Source of the DNA: Adineta vaga
Taxonomy: Eukaryota > Animalia > Rotifera
Assembly: GCA_021613535.1 (NCBI GenBank)
Contig: CP075493.1
Coordinates: 1,426,001 to 1,490,000 of the forward strand
Direction: 5' to 3'
Length of the DNA stretch: 64,000 nucleotides
Position 1 is the first letter of the stretch. Every line of letters begins with the position of its first letter. The translations under genes were made by a program, and so were the position numbers. Below, in pieces: positions 6,568 through 17,758 of this stretch. Below the pieces are notes generated by a model. It searched no databases. It saw only the letters and a program-made list of their open reading frames with translations, and was not told the DNA's origin.

Positions 6568-9500
6568 TTATTCTGACTTAGGTTTCGTAAATTGTATTAA
6601 TGTTTCTGGTGAACGATACAGGAATAGAAGTTTAGCAAATAACTGTTCTTCAATAAGTAAGATATTATGTTCACGAACTAAATAAATATCACGTAAGAGA
6701 TGCCATAAACGTTCGACACTTGGTAATTCGTTGAATATGATTGTACGACCTGTTTGTAGAATTGTGCGTAGTAATCGTGCGACAACAATAACGAATGTTG
6801 TATACAAACCAATAATTCTATATATAAGAAAAGAAAAGGCGATGCTTGTATTTTCAAATTATTACTTACCCATATCGTGTAAGAAATGAAATATTAGCTG
6901 GGGAAACTTTGTCATTGAAAAAGATCATATTCAAATACTCGTGCTTGTTTCGAGCACCTGCAAACAAAATAAATGCGACATGAACCATCATCTATCAAGT
7001 TTAGTGTTCGTCTCTACTTACATGATGCATTGAAACTATATGAATTTTCACTTTCAGACATTTCCCACCAAACATCTGTACTATTTGGGATTGTTGTTGT
7101 ACGATTCAAACCCATCGTAATATTGGCATAATAATCACGTGGAAAGACTAAAAAACAAACAGGAAAATCAATCAAGAAAAAGAACCAACCTTTCTTACTG
7201 TTTTTAAACGCATCGATTTCTTCTGGTTTTGCCTTTGGTTTTACATGTAAGAATCGTGGCATTAAATCTCGTATTGAAAAATTCCTAGAAAACAAATATT
7301 GATCAAACCATTCTTTCTTTGGAAAATTTTCTTTCAACATACGTTGATACTTGTGAGTCAACAGTTCCGTTTAATATGTTAATTAAGGCATCTCGTATCG
7401 TTCGATTTTGTGCTGTTATATCGACCGTATGGTCTCCTGTGACTACAGCTGCTATATCACCTGAATTATCTTGATTTGGTGGGTTACGTGTAATTGTATA
7501 TGAAAATCGTACAGGTACTGTAACATCAGAACGTAAATTATTAACAACAGTATCACGTATTGGTTGACTAATTTTCCATAGATCTACGCTTGTTGCAAAT
7601 AAATTTACGCATCGAATATCATCTGGATTAAAATCACGTAAAAATGCATTCGCACTATCCTGAAAAAGAATGCATAGAAATATTCCCTAATAATCAATGA
7701 ATGCTTAGTTAATGATCGTTACTTTGAGAGTCGGTGATATGTTTAATGAATCGATCTCTTCACGTAATCTTCTTGAATCTTCAGCTTTGAATTCTCTTAA
7801 ATCAATATCTTGTGCCGTCATTTGATAGATTGGCTATAAAATGAATTATCTGTACAAGAAAATTAAAGCACGACATATTTCTTACCAGATAACCACCTAA
7901 TTTAATTTCTACATTAACTTCTGTAGGTGGATTTGGTTGATAAAATGATGAAGAAAATGAGAAGAATAATAAGGGAAACCAAATCAATAGAATTAATAGA
8001 ACTAATAGAGAACCACCAACACCATATTTAGTCATTTTCGGTCGAGTAACACCACGTTCAGTTGGATATTTCTAAATGAAAATTTTAGTTATAGTTCCTT
8101 TCAAAACTTTCTCATCTTTACTTGTTCGGCCCATCGTGCACATTTTAAGAGATATACATTCGAATAAATATCTTCTAATTGTAACCAACTTGACAATCCA
8201 AGTGCTGTATCCGTAAATATCCAATCCATAATTGTTCGTAATTCCAATAGAAATGGAATTAATAAATATCTAAAATTATTTCATTCAACTCGACATCAAA
8301 TCAAATCAAATCAAATCTTACCCTCGATATAATACTTGATTAATATAATTAAAGCGTTTCATTAGAAAATTGCCTGCAATACGTTGTGGATAACCTAATC
8401 GTACTTGAATTGATGAGTAACCAAAATAGATGCATTTGAACAAATACCAAAATTGAGCAGCACGATTCGCACGAAATTTTCTTTAAAAGAAAGTAAAAAA
8501 AACGTCATTCACCTTATATATCTTGAATTTCTTGTTCGACATACGTATGTGTAATACCCGGCAAGATAAAAAATAACCAAATATGAACTCCAATCACTTG
8601 AAATAATTGGAAAAATAATTTTCCACGAACATTTCGACGTAAATAAAGTGCTCGATCAATTACAATTAATAAAAATTGAATTAATAACATCACAAGAAAA
8701 GCGACTGGAACCTATTCAAAAGAAATAATTCATTCTAAAATCTATTATTTTCACGACAAATTTTACTTTATTTTCTTTAATTGTTTGTACAACATTACCA
8801 CCCGCCCGTTCCTAAATGTACAAAACATCAAGTTTATTTTCATTGTTTTCTTTTTAGAAAAACAAATTGCATAAGGGAGTGCTATGATAAATATGATCTA
8901 TCGAGTGACATAAAGGGGCGATATTGAATATATCTAATTTTATAGGATACAAGCATCATATTGCATGTGTGAAATTACCCTTTGACTTTCTGTTAGCTGG
9001 AAGAGAATAGTTTTGAAGAAAAAGAAAATCATATCAAGAAAACTTACACCAAATTGACTGTAGAAGCCAATAACAATGATCATATTGATGAAATCACAAA
9101 AGAACATCGATGCATAAACATCGCGAACAAATAATGCTGGTCGAAGTTTTCGATAGAAATTTATGATTAATTGGACAAAATTTGCACTATTCAAAATCAG
9201 GAACATATTTTCAATATCATTCTTAATCCGTTTTATTTACCTTCGAATTTTGGATGGTTGTAATCGTTCGGTATCTTGTTGTTCTTCAGAGAGAACATCA
9301 CCATCAACGGCAACTATTCATAGAAAAAGATTCATTCGATTTTCCGTTACATATTATTGTTGTTTTGCAACTTACCATCAAGTCTGCTTTGTTCTGCTTT
9401 CCAAAGTCCGAGTTGCTAAAACGAATTCAATAAAAACCTAGAAAGAATCTAATTAATTTCATACTTTCAAAATTGATCGATGGAGAAATAGAGATAGAAG

Positions 9501-12500
9501 TAGAAAAAGATCAGCAACTGATGCTGCATTTTCTTTTCGATTGATTCCAATTATATTGACTGGCGATAAAGGATTTAAATTATCCAATGTTTCCGATGTA
9601 TTCCATGGATAGAATCGAAATTGAAAGATATATTTAATGACAATCATTGCTTCTGTATATGTAATCACTGTAATCCAATAGTTTCTCGATGGTCGTGATG
9701 ATAACATTGCCCAAAGAAAGATTGATAATGGTAATGGCATTGAAAGAAGAGCACCTGATGTTAAATGATTGATAATCATTGCGGAATAACAAAGAAGTTC
9801 CGAACGAGACATCGTAAAATAGAATAGAGAATCAAAAAAACGATAAAGACGTGAACGTTGACGTAGATCAACTGGATGCGAAAGTGTTCGAGTACGATGT
9901 GGTCTAGAAAAGAATTTATTCGTATAAGAATATCTATTACATCTATCGAAGAAGATATTTACTCATGAAATTGTTCATTTTGACCAACCCGATCTAGATC
10001 GACGACTGATGCCTAAAATTTCGATAATTTTAACATGTTGAAAATGATAAAATAGGAAATTTTTACTGTAGCTGCAAGTGATTGAGCACGAATTCGTTCT
10101 TCTTGTTGATTGATTTTATCAGCTGATTTCATTTGAGATAATGTTTTTGAAACTTCACGATAATCACGAGAACTTCGATTAAATAAATCAATGAAATAAT
10201 CAATAACAATACGACCAATCAAATGCATTTTATTCCAAACTGATTTTCCAGTTTTTTTAACTTCACCTAAACAATAATCATCAATATAAACAATTATAAT
10301 TGATATATATATATAATCATACCTTTTGGTTCAACGCTAGGTCCATGTTCAGAAGTAGTTGTTAAGGGTACTACTGTAATAGTTTCTATGTCAGGAGATG
10401 TTTCAGGTGGAGAAACCGGTGTAACAGGAAATTCTTGACTATCCGATTCGGGTAAAGTTGATGCTGGTGGTTCTAAAAAAATGTCATTCTTAAAATTGAC
10501 GATTTCTGTTCTGGATAATAAGACACTTACTATCAGCAGCAACGGCAGCAGCTGCAACTTTATCACTTGCTGTTAAAATTTGAAGAATCTATATAAAAAT
10601 AAATCAATATTAAATTCTATCTAGGGTTTTGTTTTTTTATTGATTTACTTGTTCTTGTGCAACTGTTGCTTCATCTTGTTTTCCTTCATCTTCTTCTTCA
10701 TCCGATTGATAATCAAACATATAATAATCTCCAGATCGAATAGCTAGAATAGAATGAAATATTTCTCAAAACTAAACAATTCATAATTGATTTTCAATTA
10801 ACCTTCAAAATGTTCTGCTGTATCTGAAAGTGCTGCTGCCGATCGATTTCCTGATTGATGTTGTTTGATTTGTTGCTCTTTGATACGATTTAAACTTCGT
10901 CGAATTTTTGCCACTGTTTGTTCTTCTCGTTCACAATCTTCTTCAATACGTTTTCGTGCAATATCATTAAATAGCACAGCACCTTGACTTGCTAATTTTG
11001 CTTGTGAACGAAGTTCGGCAACGATATGTTCCCAATAGTAACTACCAAAGATTCGTTTTTGTAATAATAAAAATATTAAACAAAAACCATCCCTAATTAT
11101 CAAAATAACAAAAAGAATAGAAAACTAATTTTCGTTAATCGAAATCTTACATAAATAGATTTGCGTCCGTTGCACTTCGATCACATTGATTATTCATAGC
11201 TAAATGAAGATGAATAGAAACAAATGAATTGCGGATTGAATGAAAAAAAAACAATGAAAGATGAAATCTATACCATCATAAGATGCAGGACAATTTCTTG
11301 GAGGAATAAGATCTGATTTTAAGCATGGTACAAGCAAATCAACAAATGTACAAAATGGTGATGTACGCTTAACCCCTTCACAAGGCATTGATGGATATAG
11401 AAAGATGCAAACCGCCACCTAGATTGAATTACAATTAGTTAATCATCAATTTCATCATAAGAAGAAGATTCAAATATGCAAAAGATAAAAAAGCGAGTCA
11501 AAACATTTTTTACTTTGACTGTCTATCCGTATACAAATGACAGCAAAGATTTCCTGAATAATGCATCGCGTTGATGAAAGATCAATACAAGCAATTATCT
11601 GAAAATAAGTTCCCTAATGGACAAGAAGAAAAGCATTCCCTCGTTTGTTTACTTACCTGTAAACATGTTTTAACAAATATGACCGAAAAACAATAATAAA
11701 TCAAATAACCCCATCTACAAAATAAAACGTAATGAACATAGATTTAAGAATCACAATGACTTACAATCGAAGCATAACTGTCACTCGTTTCGTTAGAAAA
11801 TCTTGTCCATACCAAAAGAAATAGAAACATGCAATAAGATAACCAAGACCAAGTAAACTAATTCGAGTTGTTCCTGCAAGGTAAACAATCGATAGAACAC
11901 ACCATGCACCATACATAAATATTGCATATTTAAAATTATCAAGCCAATGTCGTTTATTAATAACAAAATCCCATGTTGGATTATCTTCATAGACATCCTG
12001 ATCAAAAATGATTTCACGATTTGAACCGCCTGCATCCGTATAAATTCGATCTTTTTCATTTGCTTCATATTTAAAAACACGCCACTGTTGACAAGCAAAT
12101 AATAATTGAAAGAAATCAGCTAAATAAATTATAACACATCTCATAAAATGATCAAAGAATTCTTTAGAAAGTTTTACCAATTAATTGTTTTGCTGGATTA
12201 CTCGTTGGTGTTACATTTGTATAATCGGGTAAGAATAACCAACGTCTTAATTGTGGCCATCCATCAATATCAACAATAGTCCATGGATATTCTATTGAGT
12301 AGATAACATATGTTATTGTTTTCAATTCAATCTTCATAGAAAAACAAAGGAAAACTATTGGATTACTTACGAAAACAAAGAAAGGGTGGTGCTCCAACAA
12401 CACTCATATATTGCAATGGGAAAGCAATAATTAAAAATAGAATATAGCATAACCAAAATCGTTGAATCGATCGTCGACTTGATACTAGAAATATTCCGAG

Positions 12501-15500
12501 CCACATTGCATAGAGCACAGCCATTACATTCAATCGAACTCCAATGACAATCACTGTTGTTATATAACATATCTAATATCACGAAAACAAAACATCATAT
12601 TCGATAGTTTCAATAGTTTCGTTTTACCTCCAAACCAAATCGATAGAAAATAAAATTGGCTAAATATTTCAAGAAATTTTCTACACCTTGATCAGCTTGT
12701 TGATAATTAACAATATCATATTCATATGTATCATCATGCGCATCTTTCAATGCAAATGGTTCGAATAGAATCGGAAAACGATTTTCTATCAAATGAACAT
12801 GAAAATGAACCGATAAGGATAAACATCGATGTCGCTGACGATATCGTGCAATGGCATCGAATGTTAAAGCAATAGTTATTAAAATATACCACTAAAAATA
12901 AAAAATAACGTCAATTTTTTTCGAACAAAATTCATCATTGTTTTTCTTACCCCAAGAAATCGATCGAGATTTGGTGTTAATTCAAGACCAAACCATTTTG
13001 CTGTATCATTGGGAATTGAAGTTATATTTGGATCAATCTAAATGAAAAAAAATATATATACTGAATAGAAACGTATTGAGGAAATTCTTCGACTTACATT
13101 AGAACAATTTCGAACGAAAAAATTCTTTTCAACTATATATTGTTTTGCTATTGCTAATTGATAACACATCGACGAGAGAATATAAATACCTGTAGCAATC
13201 AATGTTAATAAATTAACCATTTTTCGTAGACGAAATACTGTTAAACCAATTGTTGCAAGAACCATTAACGAAACATTGAATGCATTAATCTATTTTACAA
13301 AAGAAAACTTTTTTAATCATTACGTTTAGAAAATGTTACTTGAAGAACAGATGTAAGAACCATGAGAAAGAGAACTAATTTATAAGCATGTATTTCAGCG
13401 AAACGCCATGTATAATAAGTCATTTGTTTGTAAAGACGATTAGCTCGAAAATATAATTTATATAATGATTCTTGCCATGTTGAGGGTACACTTCTTAGTA
13501 CATGTTGAGTATGTGAACTATTTGGATGATCAGTATTTTCTAAAAAGATTGAAAAACAAAATGATAAAGAAATACATGAATCAATAGTTGTTTTACCTCG
13601 AGCATAAGCATGAATATCGGCTAATGTACCAGTTGCTGGACCTTCGATATCTTTATCACTAAAAAAAAACAATAACAAATGATATTTTTCATTGATTAAA
13701 CTCAATCTATCGAAATTACTTTGGCATTGTAATTAATTTCATCCATCCCTTATGAAAGTAATGTAATTGTAGTATATTAACTACTAAAAATGTACTTGGT
13801 GTTAATAATTTTAAAGCTAAAACATCTGATTGAACGACTTCAAGTCCAATTGATGCAAGTCTAAAAAGTAAAACAGTCAATAAAATAAGATTCTATTTGT
13901 TCAAGCGATAATTTCAACATACAATTCTTTACTAAGTTGTCGAGTTAAGAATACATTGACTTTTTCGAACTAGAATAATAAAAGGATAAAGAATGAAATT
14001 TGACGAAACAATTCTTAATGATTATACTTGATAAATATAAATACCAATTAAGATTACCATGGAATAAATAATAATAGTTAAATGAAATGTAGCCACTGTT
14101 TTTCTCCAAAATCCAAATGAAATCTAATCGAAAAAATATTGCTTTTATCTTCTTCTTATGGAAGAATAGTCTTCTTACTTGAAAAGTGAAAATAAAAAAC
14201 AAATAAAATGCCATGTATATGATTCGATAAATGACGACTGTGTTTTGAATACTAACAAGTAAAAGCATGCCACATGAAACGAATATCCAATATTTTGTTA
14301 GGAAATTAATCAACCATCGTCCTAAAAATCAATCGAATAAAGAAAGGTTTTCTTTGTAAACAATTAGTTTTACCTATTCGTCGAGGATATGATTCAGTTG
14401 GTGGAGTTGTACTAGGTCGACGAGCTACGAAATTAGAGAGTAGAAAACAAAGATATAGGAATCATTTTCATAAGCAAATCATTAGAGACGAGAACCGATC
14501 GCATTACACACAGGCAGAACATATTCTTCCCTCATCTTACTTAATTCTATCACTATAAAAAGGAAAGATTTTATCGATGTTTTTCGTTGTAAACTAATTC
14601 TTCCAATTAATCTATAAAAACAAACCTTCATTTATTTGAACATTAGTCAGTCGCTTTTCATTGATATATTGTCGTAATGTTAACCAAAACAACATCATAT
14701 AAAATGACTAAAACAAACATTGAAATTTATACGAATGTTTCATAATCGATCTTTTTTTCTTCTTCTTCTTACTTTTAAGAGTAATGGCATGAATGCTGGT
14801 TGAAAATCTCTCATACGAATACCAATTTGTTCCATTGTTCGACGATCATATGCAAAATGTAATTGATTAAAACTAACTTTAAATCCAATTAAATATTGTA
14901 GAATTAATAATATTGCTCCGTAGATTGTAAAGAATGGACTCATTCTCAAACACCATTGACGAGAATTTGGTAATACCCAGAGTAAACATGCCCAGAGAAG
15001 ATAGACTAGTGTTAATATACTATGAAAGGTGATACTCCATGCCTATGTCGGAATAGATAATTTAATACAATTATTGTTTTTCAAAAAAAACATGATTTCT
15101 TTCTTACCAACATAGCAATCAATGAAAGTAGATAACTATGTCTTTCAAGAACACGAATGACTGAAAATACAACGAAAATAATTCGTCCTTGCCAAGTTTG
15201 ATCACCAGGTTGTTCTAAACTCCATCGTCGATGTAATGAAGGTGGACTTTGCTCAAATGTATCACGACTATCCGGATTGTGTACTAAACTCTATAATTTA
15301 AAAAAAACACACAAACCATGTTATGATCAAATATTATCAGATATGAAATAACTAAAGCCCAGAATCATGTGAATAAGTCAACAATAGATGAAACACACAA
15401 GCAAAATGTTCGTCTAATATTTGATTAAACTATGGTCGACATATAAGCATTCACACGATTTCAAATGATAGCATGAATATGGAAGAAAATTAAAAACAAG

Positions 15501-17758
15501 CAAACCTGTTTATCAATACTGCGACGAGGGTTTATCTGTTTAACAGGTGATACACACAGAAAAAGGTGAAAATGGACTGATCACACGAAAAAAAATGTAA
15601 CAAAATCTTTCTGCTTACCTGTTGTTCAAGTGAATGAATTGTTAAAACATTCGAACGAACCTTTTATTTATGAATAGATAAAGTAAAGATTAAAAATAAA
15701 ATCATATTTTAAATCAAACTTACTCGCCGAGAAAGTGTTCGATTTGTTTCAAAAGCAAAATAGAAATATAATAGAAGTAATGCACATGGATTAACATAAT
15801 CACTCCATACTAAATTTCTTTCAAAATATGGTTCACGATCCGTACAATTACTTTCTACAAGTGCTGTTAAACCAGTAATACTAATAAAAAGAAGATGATC
15901 ATTATTTAAACATATATATATATCTTAAATTTAATTCGTCTTACTTGCTCCATGTTGATAAAGGTGGTAAAACATCTTGAAAGAATCCAAATTGATAAAG
16001 ATAAAAGATCAATAAATGTGTGCCAGTATAAATCACTAATAACATTCGTGCTAATATATATTTCTTTCCGAATTTAACCGATAATGACCAAATAAAGGCA
16101 AGTTTAAGAAAGAAAAGAAAATAAATTGAATTGATAATACTTGGATTAACAAATGCTGCAAAGCCGACGATAACAAATTGAAGAAATAAACGTGTTCGTC
16201 TTAAGATAGATAATAATCTTGGCCATAATTTCTTTTGATCTTCTATACTAGTACTACTATTCGTTGAAGGTAATACAGTTGGTGAAACAGTTGATTCATT
16301 ATTTTCACGACGTCGTACGGATACAATCGAACGTCGAATTATAATCAAACAAACAGTTGAAGCAGCAAGAATAATTATATCGGGAAAGATTAAACGTAAG
16401 ATACGAGTTGCTGTAGAATTGTCAAGACTAGAAATAGATTATTTATAGAAAGAATTTCTATTATTCTTGTTGATTATACATACCGTTCTAGACCAAAATA
16501 TCGAAGTGTTCGAACTGTGTCCGTACCTGAAATGAATTTTATTCGATATTGAAGTCTTTTTTCTTGTTTTATCTAATGAAGATGATCATCTACTTACAAT
16601 TATCGAGTGTATGACCATAGGGTTTGTTAGCAAGAAGTATAGATTGGAATATAATTTGAGCAAAAACAGTTAATAAACTGACGATTGTAATAACCAAAAC
16701 AAATACACGAAATCGGGCTAAAATGAAATATAAATATCGATGTGTTTTTTTGAAATTTGATTTTACTTCGAATATTTCGTTCAGTTATAGGGCCAAGCCA
16801 TGGAAGTAGAAGTAATAGAAAAGCGTAGATAAATGATATAACACTATACCGAAAGATCGCCCCTATTTACACATAAACAAAATGAAATGAAACCATGATT
16901 TAAGAGAAATATGTTTACATACCACTGAGCAAAGCAAGAGGTAGAAAGATCAGAATAAGTGCAGACAAGAGCGATCGACCCATTGTGGTTAAAATCCTAG
17001 AAATGAAGATGAAAATGAAATTGAATTTCAATTGTTGTCGTATGCAAATCAAAACGAAAGAACAAACAAAATCAAAAAAAGGTTTGTTTTTATGCTTCAT
17101 GTACACATGAATATCTGACTGCATCAATGAAAGAGTCCATATGATGGTTTTCACCTTTTCATTATTTTTACGTACGATGTGATTCAAAAAGCATAAAAAT
17201 CCTCTAATCGTATATTTTTCTTCTCGAATAAATGTCAATCAAATTACCTTAACTGTATGAATATTTTCACATCGGCAATTTAATAACGTAACTAACATTA
17301 GTTGAATATTCTTTTTTTCCTATCTTTTCTCTATATATGTAAATATATATGTGAGGGATGCTATGTATGCTTACTGATATGGCACCACATTTTTTAAATA
17401 ACGGAAAAATGAAAAAAGAGTCAAAATCAAATTATTGAAATATTTAAATGAAGAAATAATAAGAAAAAATATTTGATAACAAGATAAAATAATAGTTAAT
17501 TTCTTTCAACACTCGTTTTTTTTCTCTCTCTTACTTCTCTGGAGAAGATAATATTACAGAATCATAAGTCCTTGGTACACGAGAAACTAATAGATTAGGT
17601 TTGGATAATAATGATGGATTTAATGTGAGAGAGTTCAATTGATTTGGTTTTAGTGGTATTGTATAGATACGAAGAGGATAATCTTGATCTAATACGTTGT
17701 TTGCTTCCGAGATATCGTTGATTGATATCAGATGTAGAAGTTGATGATTGGGATCCAT
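6568..17758 (-). CDS. Piezo: Piezo mechanosensitive cation channel, many short exons; core ATG at 16983, putative extended isoform ATG at 17758
   Basis: C-terminal pore module (…LLIEEQLFAKLLFLYRSPETLIQFTK), anchor region (KYGVGG…LIWFPLLFFS), SELLCYSAMIINH…PLSIFLWAMLS and FLLLQKRIFGSYY motifs, in exons joined by canonical GT-AG introns. Confidence 0.96.

What the first reader, a model, noticed from the sequence alone, without database searches (positions are those of the whole stretch)
11274..11598. Piezo carries a frame-enforced mutually exclusive exon pair in the loop just before the beam
After the exon ending …VKTCLQ (phase 0, 11657) lie two exons that both start in phase 0 and end in phase 1. 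Exon A is 11598-11514 (85 nt, IIACIDLSSTRCIIQEIFAVICIRIDSQ). Exon B is 11418-11274 (145 nt, VAVCIFLYPSMPCEGVKRTSPFCTFVDLLVPCLKSDLIPPRNCPASYD). The next exon (11199-11151) needs phase 1 and leads to MDGFCLIFLLLQKRIFGSYY. Including both gives a TGA ~14 codons into B; skipping both also shifts frame. A and B share a xxxC…C…C pattern, suggesting exon duplication; B is 20 aa longer with two extra Cys. Established: this aligns to the mouse Piezo1 Cys-containing extracellular loop of THU7 preceding the beam. Inference: isoform switching could tune mechanosensitivity.
Basis: partly seen in the sequence, partly recalled or inferred. Interest (0 to 1): 0.78.

Follow-up and report, generated by a model that had tools for sequence, protein, structure and literature searches.

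The report
Swappable loop exons in rotifer Piezo
A bdelloid rotifer's Piezo touch-channel gene holds two neighbouring exons for the same outer loop, only one of which fits the reading frame at a time: the newer, longer one is the form seen in RNA, and the older one is conserved and likely used as a rare alternative that would change the loop facing the channel's cap.

Summary
Exon A (85 nt) and exon B (145 nt) have AG/GT ends and both run phase 0 to 1. Including both, or neither, hits an early stop. The gene is an intact bdelloid rotifer Piezo, and the exons encode the TM27-TM28 loop of THU7.

RNA supports only B: 5 of 5 runs with spliced contigs skip A, and none joins A. Contigs drop rare forms, so this does not exclude a minor A isoform.

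A is conserved in Adineta, Rotaria and Didymodactylos and in 2 of 5 informative metagenome loci; one clade lost it. A keeps the ancestral four-cysteine loop; B is a bdelloid six-cysteine version, 20 residues longer. In worm PEZO-1 this stretch touches the cap.

Best reading (0.65): a mutually exclusive pair, B default and A minor. Rival (0.25): A is vestigial here. Switching and any effect on gating are untested. It is a new example of a known splicing device. The scan's index holds no look-alike DNA.

The parts
6574..17061 (-). Piezo gene, B form: 47 exons, 46 introns, 2344 codons, no internal stop; 85% identical to an Adineta ricciae Piezo model
   Evidence: Spliced alignment to A. steineri P0055; the 8 joints seen in spliced contigs agree
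11657..11714 (-). Constitutive upstream exon (most of TM27), ends in phase 0; strongest donor of the gene (11.7 bits)
11599..11656 (-). 58-nt intron before A. A stronger AG 15 nt upstream (exon start 11613, same frame) would leave a 43-nt intron, shorter than any other in the gene (minimum 49)
11514..11598 (-). Exon A, 85 nt, phase 0 to 1: ancestral-type loop with 3 of the 4 family cysteines; weak acceptor, good donor; not seen spliced
   Evidence: homologues; no joint
11419..11513 (-). 95-nt intron between A and B, with a branch-point-like ACTAAT 21 nt before B; long enough to be spliced
11274..11418 (-). Exon B, 145 nt, phase 0 to 1: bdelloid-type loop, 20 residues longer, 5 cysteines and 7 prolines; the form seen in RNA
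   Evidence: joints 11657>11418 and 11274>11199 in 5 of 5 runs with spliced contigs
11151..11199 (-). Constitutive 49-nt exon, starts in phase 1, carries the last loop cysteine
10803..11092 (-). Constitutive exon: TM28 and the beam

Best explanation
Exons A and B are two versions of one Piezo loop exon that cannot share a reading frame; B is the form seen spliced, and A is likely a conserved minor alternative, making this a likely mutually exclusive pair that arose by tandem duplication. Origin (inferred): the exon for the end of TM27 and its outer loop was duplicated in the bdelloid ancestor, before Didymodactylos and the two Piezo gene copies diverged. A kept the four-cysteine loop of other animals. 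B gained 20 residues and two cysteines, predicted to form a third disulfide. Default (shown): the upstream exon joins B. Probable cause (inferred): A's acceptor is weaker than B's. Alternative (inferred, not seen): in a minority of cells or conditions A is chosen and joined past B to the next exon. Exclusivity (frame shown, decay inferred): transcripts with both or neither carry an early stop far upstream of many later introns and would be removed by nonsense-mediated decay. No steric or hairpin block was found. Effect (inferred): the stretch between the last two family cysteines is 11 residues in the A form and 21 in the B form. The same stretch touches the neighbouring subunit's cap in worm PEZO-1, so the swap would change cap-blade coupling and thus threshold or inactivation.
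For: Frame. B spliced in 5 of 5 runs with spliced contigs, from 4 studies. A-type sequence lies at the same place in Rotaria sp. Silwood2 (same length; 16 of 28 residues identical to window A), Rotaria sp. Silwood1, A. ricciae and D. carnosus gene models, and in loci L001 and L006. Two models read through A into B, so both lie in tandem there. Seven A sequences align without gaps over the first 25 codons with 7 invariant columns, including all 3 cysteines. A simple neutral simulation keeps an open frame and the 3 cysteines in 0.3-1.4% of runs, before counting indels. A phase-1 donor exists in L001 (124 nt) and L006 (76 nt). 91 of 118 non-bdelloid Piezo loops have 4 cysteines and 1 has 6. The A profile matches them at 96.6%, the B profile at 8.6%. 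The acanthocephalan Pomphorhynchus has the A type. 42 of 46 introns are 49-79 nt, and each of the other three long ones also holds a small in-frame exon found in relatives' models. Worm cap contacts C1278, S1288 and K1289 (PMC12951647 section 9) fall between the last two family cysteines (counted by hand).
Against: No joint uses A in 5 of 5 runs with spliced contigs. The pure A-type models come from species annotated without their own RNA-seq (PMC7943196), so they are not expression evidence. A is absent from 3 of 5 informative loci (L002-L004, one clade), so it is dispensable in some copies. Codon tests on A are not significant (dN/dS about 0.4-0.7, Fisher p 0.16-0.45). A changes faster than B between the window and Rotaria (16 of 28 against 38 of 48). 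The window's A scores lowest of 7 A sequences against the ancestral profile (13.1 bits). In L006 the longer A donor is out of frame behind a stop, and the A donors of L001 and L006 score low (-0.2 and 1.7 bits). Direct A-B similarity is weak.
Confidence: 0.65

Rival explanations
1. A is the ancestral exon being retired. B replaced it as the constitutive exon, and in this gene copy A is no longer used and is decaying, although it was under selection for part of bdelloid history.
For: No A joint in 5 of 5 spliced-contig runs. Full loss in the L002-L004 clade. Frameshift in the long form of L006 A. Window A is the most drifted copy. dN/dS is not significantly below 1. The acceptor is weak.
Against: The window's A keeps its frame, a length equal to the Rotaria copy, all 3 cysteines and a good donor. 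The one variant seen inside A in other runs (11569) is at a third codon position and synonymous (a single site, weak). Contigs drop rare forms by the tool's own statement.
Confidence: 0.25
2. A acts mainly as a poison exon. It is spliced in together with B to create an early stop and turn Piezo down by nonsense-mediated decay.
For: A+B gives a stop at codon 14 of B. The 95-nt intron between them is spliceable by length. One A. ricciae model (P0133) reads A in the +1 frame and joins it to B at A's phase-1 end, which could reflect an A-to-B junction; whether RNA evidence lay behind that model is unknown.
Against: A poison exon needs no conserved cysteines or ancestral loop sequence, yet these are kept in 7 of 7 A sequences. 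No A-to-B joint appears in any contig.
Confidence: 0.08
3. The pair is an assembly artefact, or both exons are included through other splice sites.
For: An AG inside B (11375) would keep A plus the 3' part of B in frame.
Against: That AG scores -2.2 bits and is unused in contigs. An unspliced contig of run X7 spans 11196-11900 with 2 differences and no gaps (it may be the window's own source), and a contig of another study covers 11391-11684. Relatives have the same tandem layout.
Confidence: 0.02

Closest known systems
Homologous mutually exclusive exon pairs of non-3n length policed by nonsense-mediated decay (C. elegans survey, PMC4165533; passages read)
   Same: Tandem exons at one protein position, same frame out, both or neither gives a premature stop. 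One exon can dominate, as the paper says for lev-11 7a/7b, snt-1 6B/6A and unc-62 7a/7b.
   Different: There the single-inclusion forms were shown by RT-PCR; here only B is shown. The 20-residue length gap is at the default limit of the prediction tool in PMC3228551 (passages), and sequence likeness is low.
Mammalian Piezo1.1 (exon 30 skipped) and Piezo2 exon 33/35 variants (review PMC12490864; passages read)
   Same: Splicing within Piezo that changes a local element and, in those cases, channel properties.
   Different: Those are cassette exons, and exon 30/33 encode the intracellular lateral plug. This is a swap of two duplicated exons in an extracellular, cysteine-rich loop of THU7.
C. elegans PEZO-1 isoforms G, K, L (PMC12951647; passages and section 9 read)
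   Same: Invertebrate Piezo with isoform diversity; its THU7 TM27-TM28 loop contacts the cap.
   Different: Those isoforms differ by loss of the N-terminal blade. The word 'mutually' does not occur in the paper's main text.

Membership tests
Piezo channel, THU7 TM27-TM28 loop | Sequence and fold homology to solved Piezo structures at this position | tested here: met
   A Rotaria A-type model aligns to mouse Piezo1/Piezo2 (E 1e-83, 2e-85); exon A maps to about mouse Piezo1 1229-1260 (counted by hand). Its predicted fold matches Piezo entries in the top 18 ranks.
Mutually exclusive exon pair | Adjacent internal exons with compatible splice sites and the same reading frame | tested here: met
   Both AG..GT, phase 0 to 1, both open with the flanking exons
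Mutually exclusive exon pair | Each single-inclusion isoform is detected in RNA | tested here: inconclusive
   B yes (5 of 5 spliced-contig runs), A no; only assembled contigs were available and they drop rare variants
Mutually exclusive exon pair | Double inclusion and double skipping are absent or decay-sensitive | tested here: inconclusive
   Neither joint is seen in contigs and both give early stops; decay itself was not testable
Homologous (duplication-derived) mutually exclusive exons | The two exons are homologous | tested here: inconclusive
   Direct profile match weak (1.6%, E 0.03). All 7 A and 12 B sequences match the outgroup loop profile (9.3-29.9 bits) and share three cysteine positions.
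Homologous (duplication-derived) mutually exclusive exons | Both exons conserved in related genomes | tested here: met
   Both in L001, L006 and in read-through models of D. carnosus and A. ricciae; A missing in L002-L004
Sterically enforced exclusion | Intron between the exons too short to splice | tested here: not met
   95 nt against a gene minimum of 49 nt
Base-pairing (docking/selector) exclusion | Stable competing RNA structure | tested here: inconclusive
   Folding of 11670-11400 is no better than shuffles (z -0.72); covariation was not tested

The most novel reading that the evidence does not exclude
Bdelloid rotifers built a two-state splice switch on the Piezo loop that faces the cap. 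A new six-cysteine loop serves as the bulk channel, possibly suited to membranes that dry and rehydrate, while the ancestral four-cysteine loop is kept for a few sensory cells. This would be a natural pair of channels that differ only in cap-blade contact.
Probability: 0.25. Interest if true: 0.7.

Novelty: new member of a known kind. Interest (0 to 1): 0.45.

Why it matters
Cap-blade contact is a proposed control point of Piezo gating, and it differs between worm PEZO-1, Piezo1 and Piezo2 (PMC12951647 section 9). Two natural isoforms that differ only in this loop would test that idea directly. Even without switching, the six-cysteine B loop is a lineage-specific redesign of a loop that has four cysteines in 91 of 118 other Piezos. 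The splicing device itself is well known, and the organism is hard to work on, which limits the score.

Tried and rejected
No whole genome is held for this window, so the organism's other Piezo copies could not be read in full.

No run is on record as RNA (no RNA holder listed). I treated a run as RNA-like only where its contigs were spliced. Of 8 runs laid (of 18 listed), 5 gave spliced contigs, X7 and X9 gave unspliced ones, and X6 gave nothing. The piece tables were cut (11 and 3 records not shown). Contig depth was not used to rank isoforms.

Two translations were in the wrong frame and were not used. The prokaryote genome collection held no relative. Of 11 metagenome loci, 3 were distant (33-34%) and not used, L005 ends before the region, L008 has no recognisable A or B, and L007 has no introns over the region.

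Codon-level selection tests on A were not significant. No hairpin signal was found. The B-form structure model was too poor to use (mean pLDDT 47.6), so disulfide pairing is untested. The first simulation timed out and was rerun. The tree does not resolve its backbone; only starred groups were used.

An Rbfox-type explanation was considered and not adopted. The GCATG element is absent from the window's own intron and persists in two loci without A; the Rbfox label is recalled.

Literature: ten searches listed no paper on a mutually exclusive or duplicated Piezo exon, or on rotifer Piezo. I saw only listings and abstract starts, except for the papers cited. The library lacks most subscription papers, and I read no supplements, where exon catalogues could hold such a case.

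Full report
What is there. The stated exons are in the sequence: A 11598-11514 (85 nt), B 11418-11274 (145 nt), next exon 11199-11151, all with AG and GT ends. Either exon alone keeps the frame. Both together stop at codon 14 of B, and skipping both stops at once. The gene is a complete Piezo on the minus strand, 17061-6574, with 46 introns and 2344 codons in the B form. It is 85% identical to an Adineta ricciae model and 82% to an A. steineri model, and it groups with the A. ricciae copy at 98/96 support. The organism is therefore a bdelloid rotifer near Adineta (inference from homology).

Place in the protein. A Rotaria model carrying an A-type exon aligns to mouse Piezo1 and Piezo2, with the exon at about Piezo1 residues 1229-1260 (counted by hand). 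In its predicted structure the exon starts in the last turn of a membrane helix, runs through a loop with a short helix (pLDDT about 63-79), and is followed by another membrane helix and the long beam helix. The fold matches Piezo entries. This is the TM27-TM28 loop of THU7.

RNA evidence. No run is on record as RNA, so I judged runs by spliced contigs. Five of the eight runs laid gave them (X1, X2, X3, X10, X12; four studies). All five join the upstream exon to B and B to the next exon, and none has a joint to A. X1 has one unspliced contig across A at depth 4.6 against about 40. A second, more diverged Piezo copy in run X2 also continues into a B-type exon (loose end, read by hand). Locus L007, which has no introns over this region, is B-type too. 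Contigs drop rare variants, so this shows that B dominates and says nothing firm about a minor A form.

Conservation. Among 159 proteins held at that point, 84 had the anchor before the loop, giving 32 distinct segments: 23 B-type, 3 A-type, 2 reading through A into B, and 4 neither. Many come from repeated assemblies of a few species and are not independent. A-type sequence occurs in Rotaria sp. Silwood2 and Silwood1, A. ricciae and Didymodactylos carnosus. The pure A-type models come from species annotated without their own RNA-seq (PMC7943196, methods passage), so they show sequence and not expression. One of the 23 B-type segments, A. ricciae P0133, also contains A read in the +1 frame. 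Of five metagenome loci that cover the intron, L001 and L006 hold A then B, and L002-L004 hold only B. The last three form one clade (97/97), so one loss explains them. A occurs both in the window's group of Piezo copies and outside it, which fits an origin before the ancient genome doubling described in PMC5916493 (passages); the tree backbone is unresolved, so this timing is inference.

Is A under selection? Seven A sequences align without gaps over 25 codons and keep all three cysteines. The flanking introns of the window and L001/L006 are only 43-55% alike, against 67-68% for A. A crude neutral simulation keeps an open frame and the three cysteines in 1.4% of runs at 0.45 substitutions per site and 0.3% at 0.7, before indels. 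Against this, dN/dS on 25 codons is about 0.4-0.7 and not significant, A diverges faster than B, and the window's A is the most drifted. The long form of A in L006 is frameshifted, with only a weak phase-1 donor at 76 nt. A has been maintained over bdelloid history; whether this copy still uses it is open.

Which is older. Of 150 non-bdelloid relatives, 118 covered the loop: 91 have four cysteines, 17 five, 1 six and 9 fewer than four. The A form has four and the B form six. The A profile matches the outgroup profile at 96.6%, the B profile at 8.6%, and A matches B at only 1.6%. The acanthocephalan Pomphorhynchus has the A type. So A is ancestral and B is a derived bdelloid loop that became the main form.

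How it most likely works. The upstream donor is the gene's strongest. A's acceptor (3.1 bits) is weaker than B's (5.8), and in L001 and L006 the gap is larger (1.6-1.9 against 8.5-10.2). That fits B as default. The 95-nt intron between A and B is long enough to splice, and the region shows no unusual folding, so exclusivity would rest on regulation plus decay of frameshifted products. That is the pattern reported for 14 of 19 non-3n clusters in C. elegans (PMC4165533). At the protein level the stretch between the last two family cysteines is 11 residues in A and 21 in B. In worm PEZO-1 it is 17 residues and holds the three THU7 residues that bind the neighbouring cap. A change in cap-blade coupling is therefore the likeliest effect, but it is inferred. 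The B model was too poor to test the extra disulfide.

Compared with what is known. Piezo splicing is known, through cassette exons in mammals and truncated blades in worm. Ten literature searches listed no mutually exclusive Piezo exon and no rotifer Piezo paper, within a library that lacks most subscription papers. The scan's index holds no look-alike DNA and one note on a different rotifer gene with the same device (unchecked).

Verdict. The feature is real and conserved. It works like a duplicated mutually exclusive exon pair, and it meets the frame and conservation tests, but the test that both isoforms exist is inconclusive. New member of a known kind; interest 0.45.

Noticed in passing
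window 15535-15506, 14552-14541 and 8996-8979 (minus strand): The three other long introns of this Piezo (328, 201, 236 nt) each hold a small in-frame exon of 30, 12 and 18 nt. Matching peptides appear in some Adineta or Rotaria gene models and not in others, so they are probable cassette microexons. The 30-nt one was found by eye, not by the splice-site scan.
   Followed up: partly
L001 869-1192, L006 2657-2993, L002 1057-1134, L003 2336-2435: An AAAGCATG element lies 34-79 nt before exon B in 4 of 6 introns examined, including two loci without A. It is absent from the window and L004, and GCATG never occurs in the window's 3456 intron bases. GCAUG as an Rbfox site is recalled, not tested.
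   Followed up: partly
runs X2, X7, X9 laid on window 10950-11900: A second, more diverged Piezo copy exists in the same organism. It is transcribed and spliced to a B-type exon in X2; whether it holds an A exon could not be seen.
   Followed up: partly
L001 949-1072; L006 2734-2843: In these Piezo copies exon A is longer, with an extra conserved tail that is also in Didymodactylos, Rotaria sp. Silwood1 and A. ricciae models. In L006 that tail is frameshifted and a GT at 76 nt restores phase 1, where L001 has GC.
   Followed up: partly
window about 19000-18550 (minus strand): A ribosomal-protein-like gene lies just upstream of Piezo. A. ricciae models in the window's Piezo cluster are named 'eS19', suggesting a fused annotation and conserved gene order. 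Identity as eS19 was not tested directly.
   Followed up: no
L004 and L007: L004 lacks three introns present in the other loci, and L007 has none over about 650 codons, so it is a transcript, a retrocopy or an intron-poor lineage.
   Followed up: no
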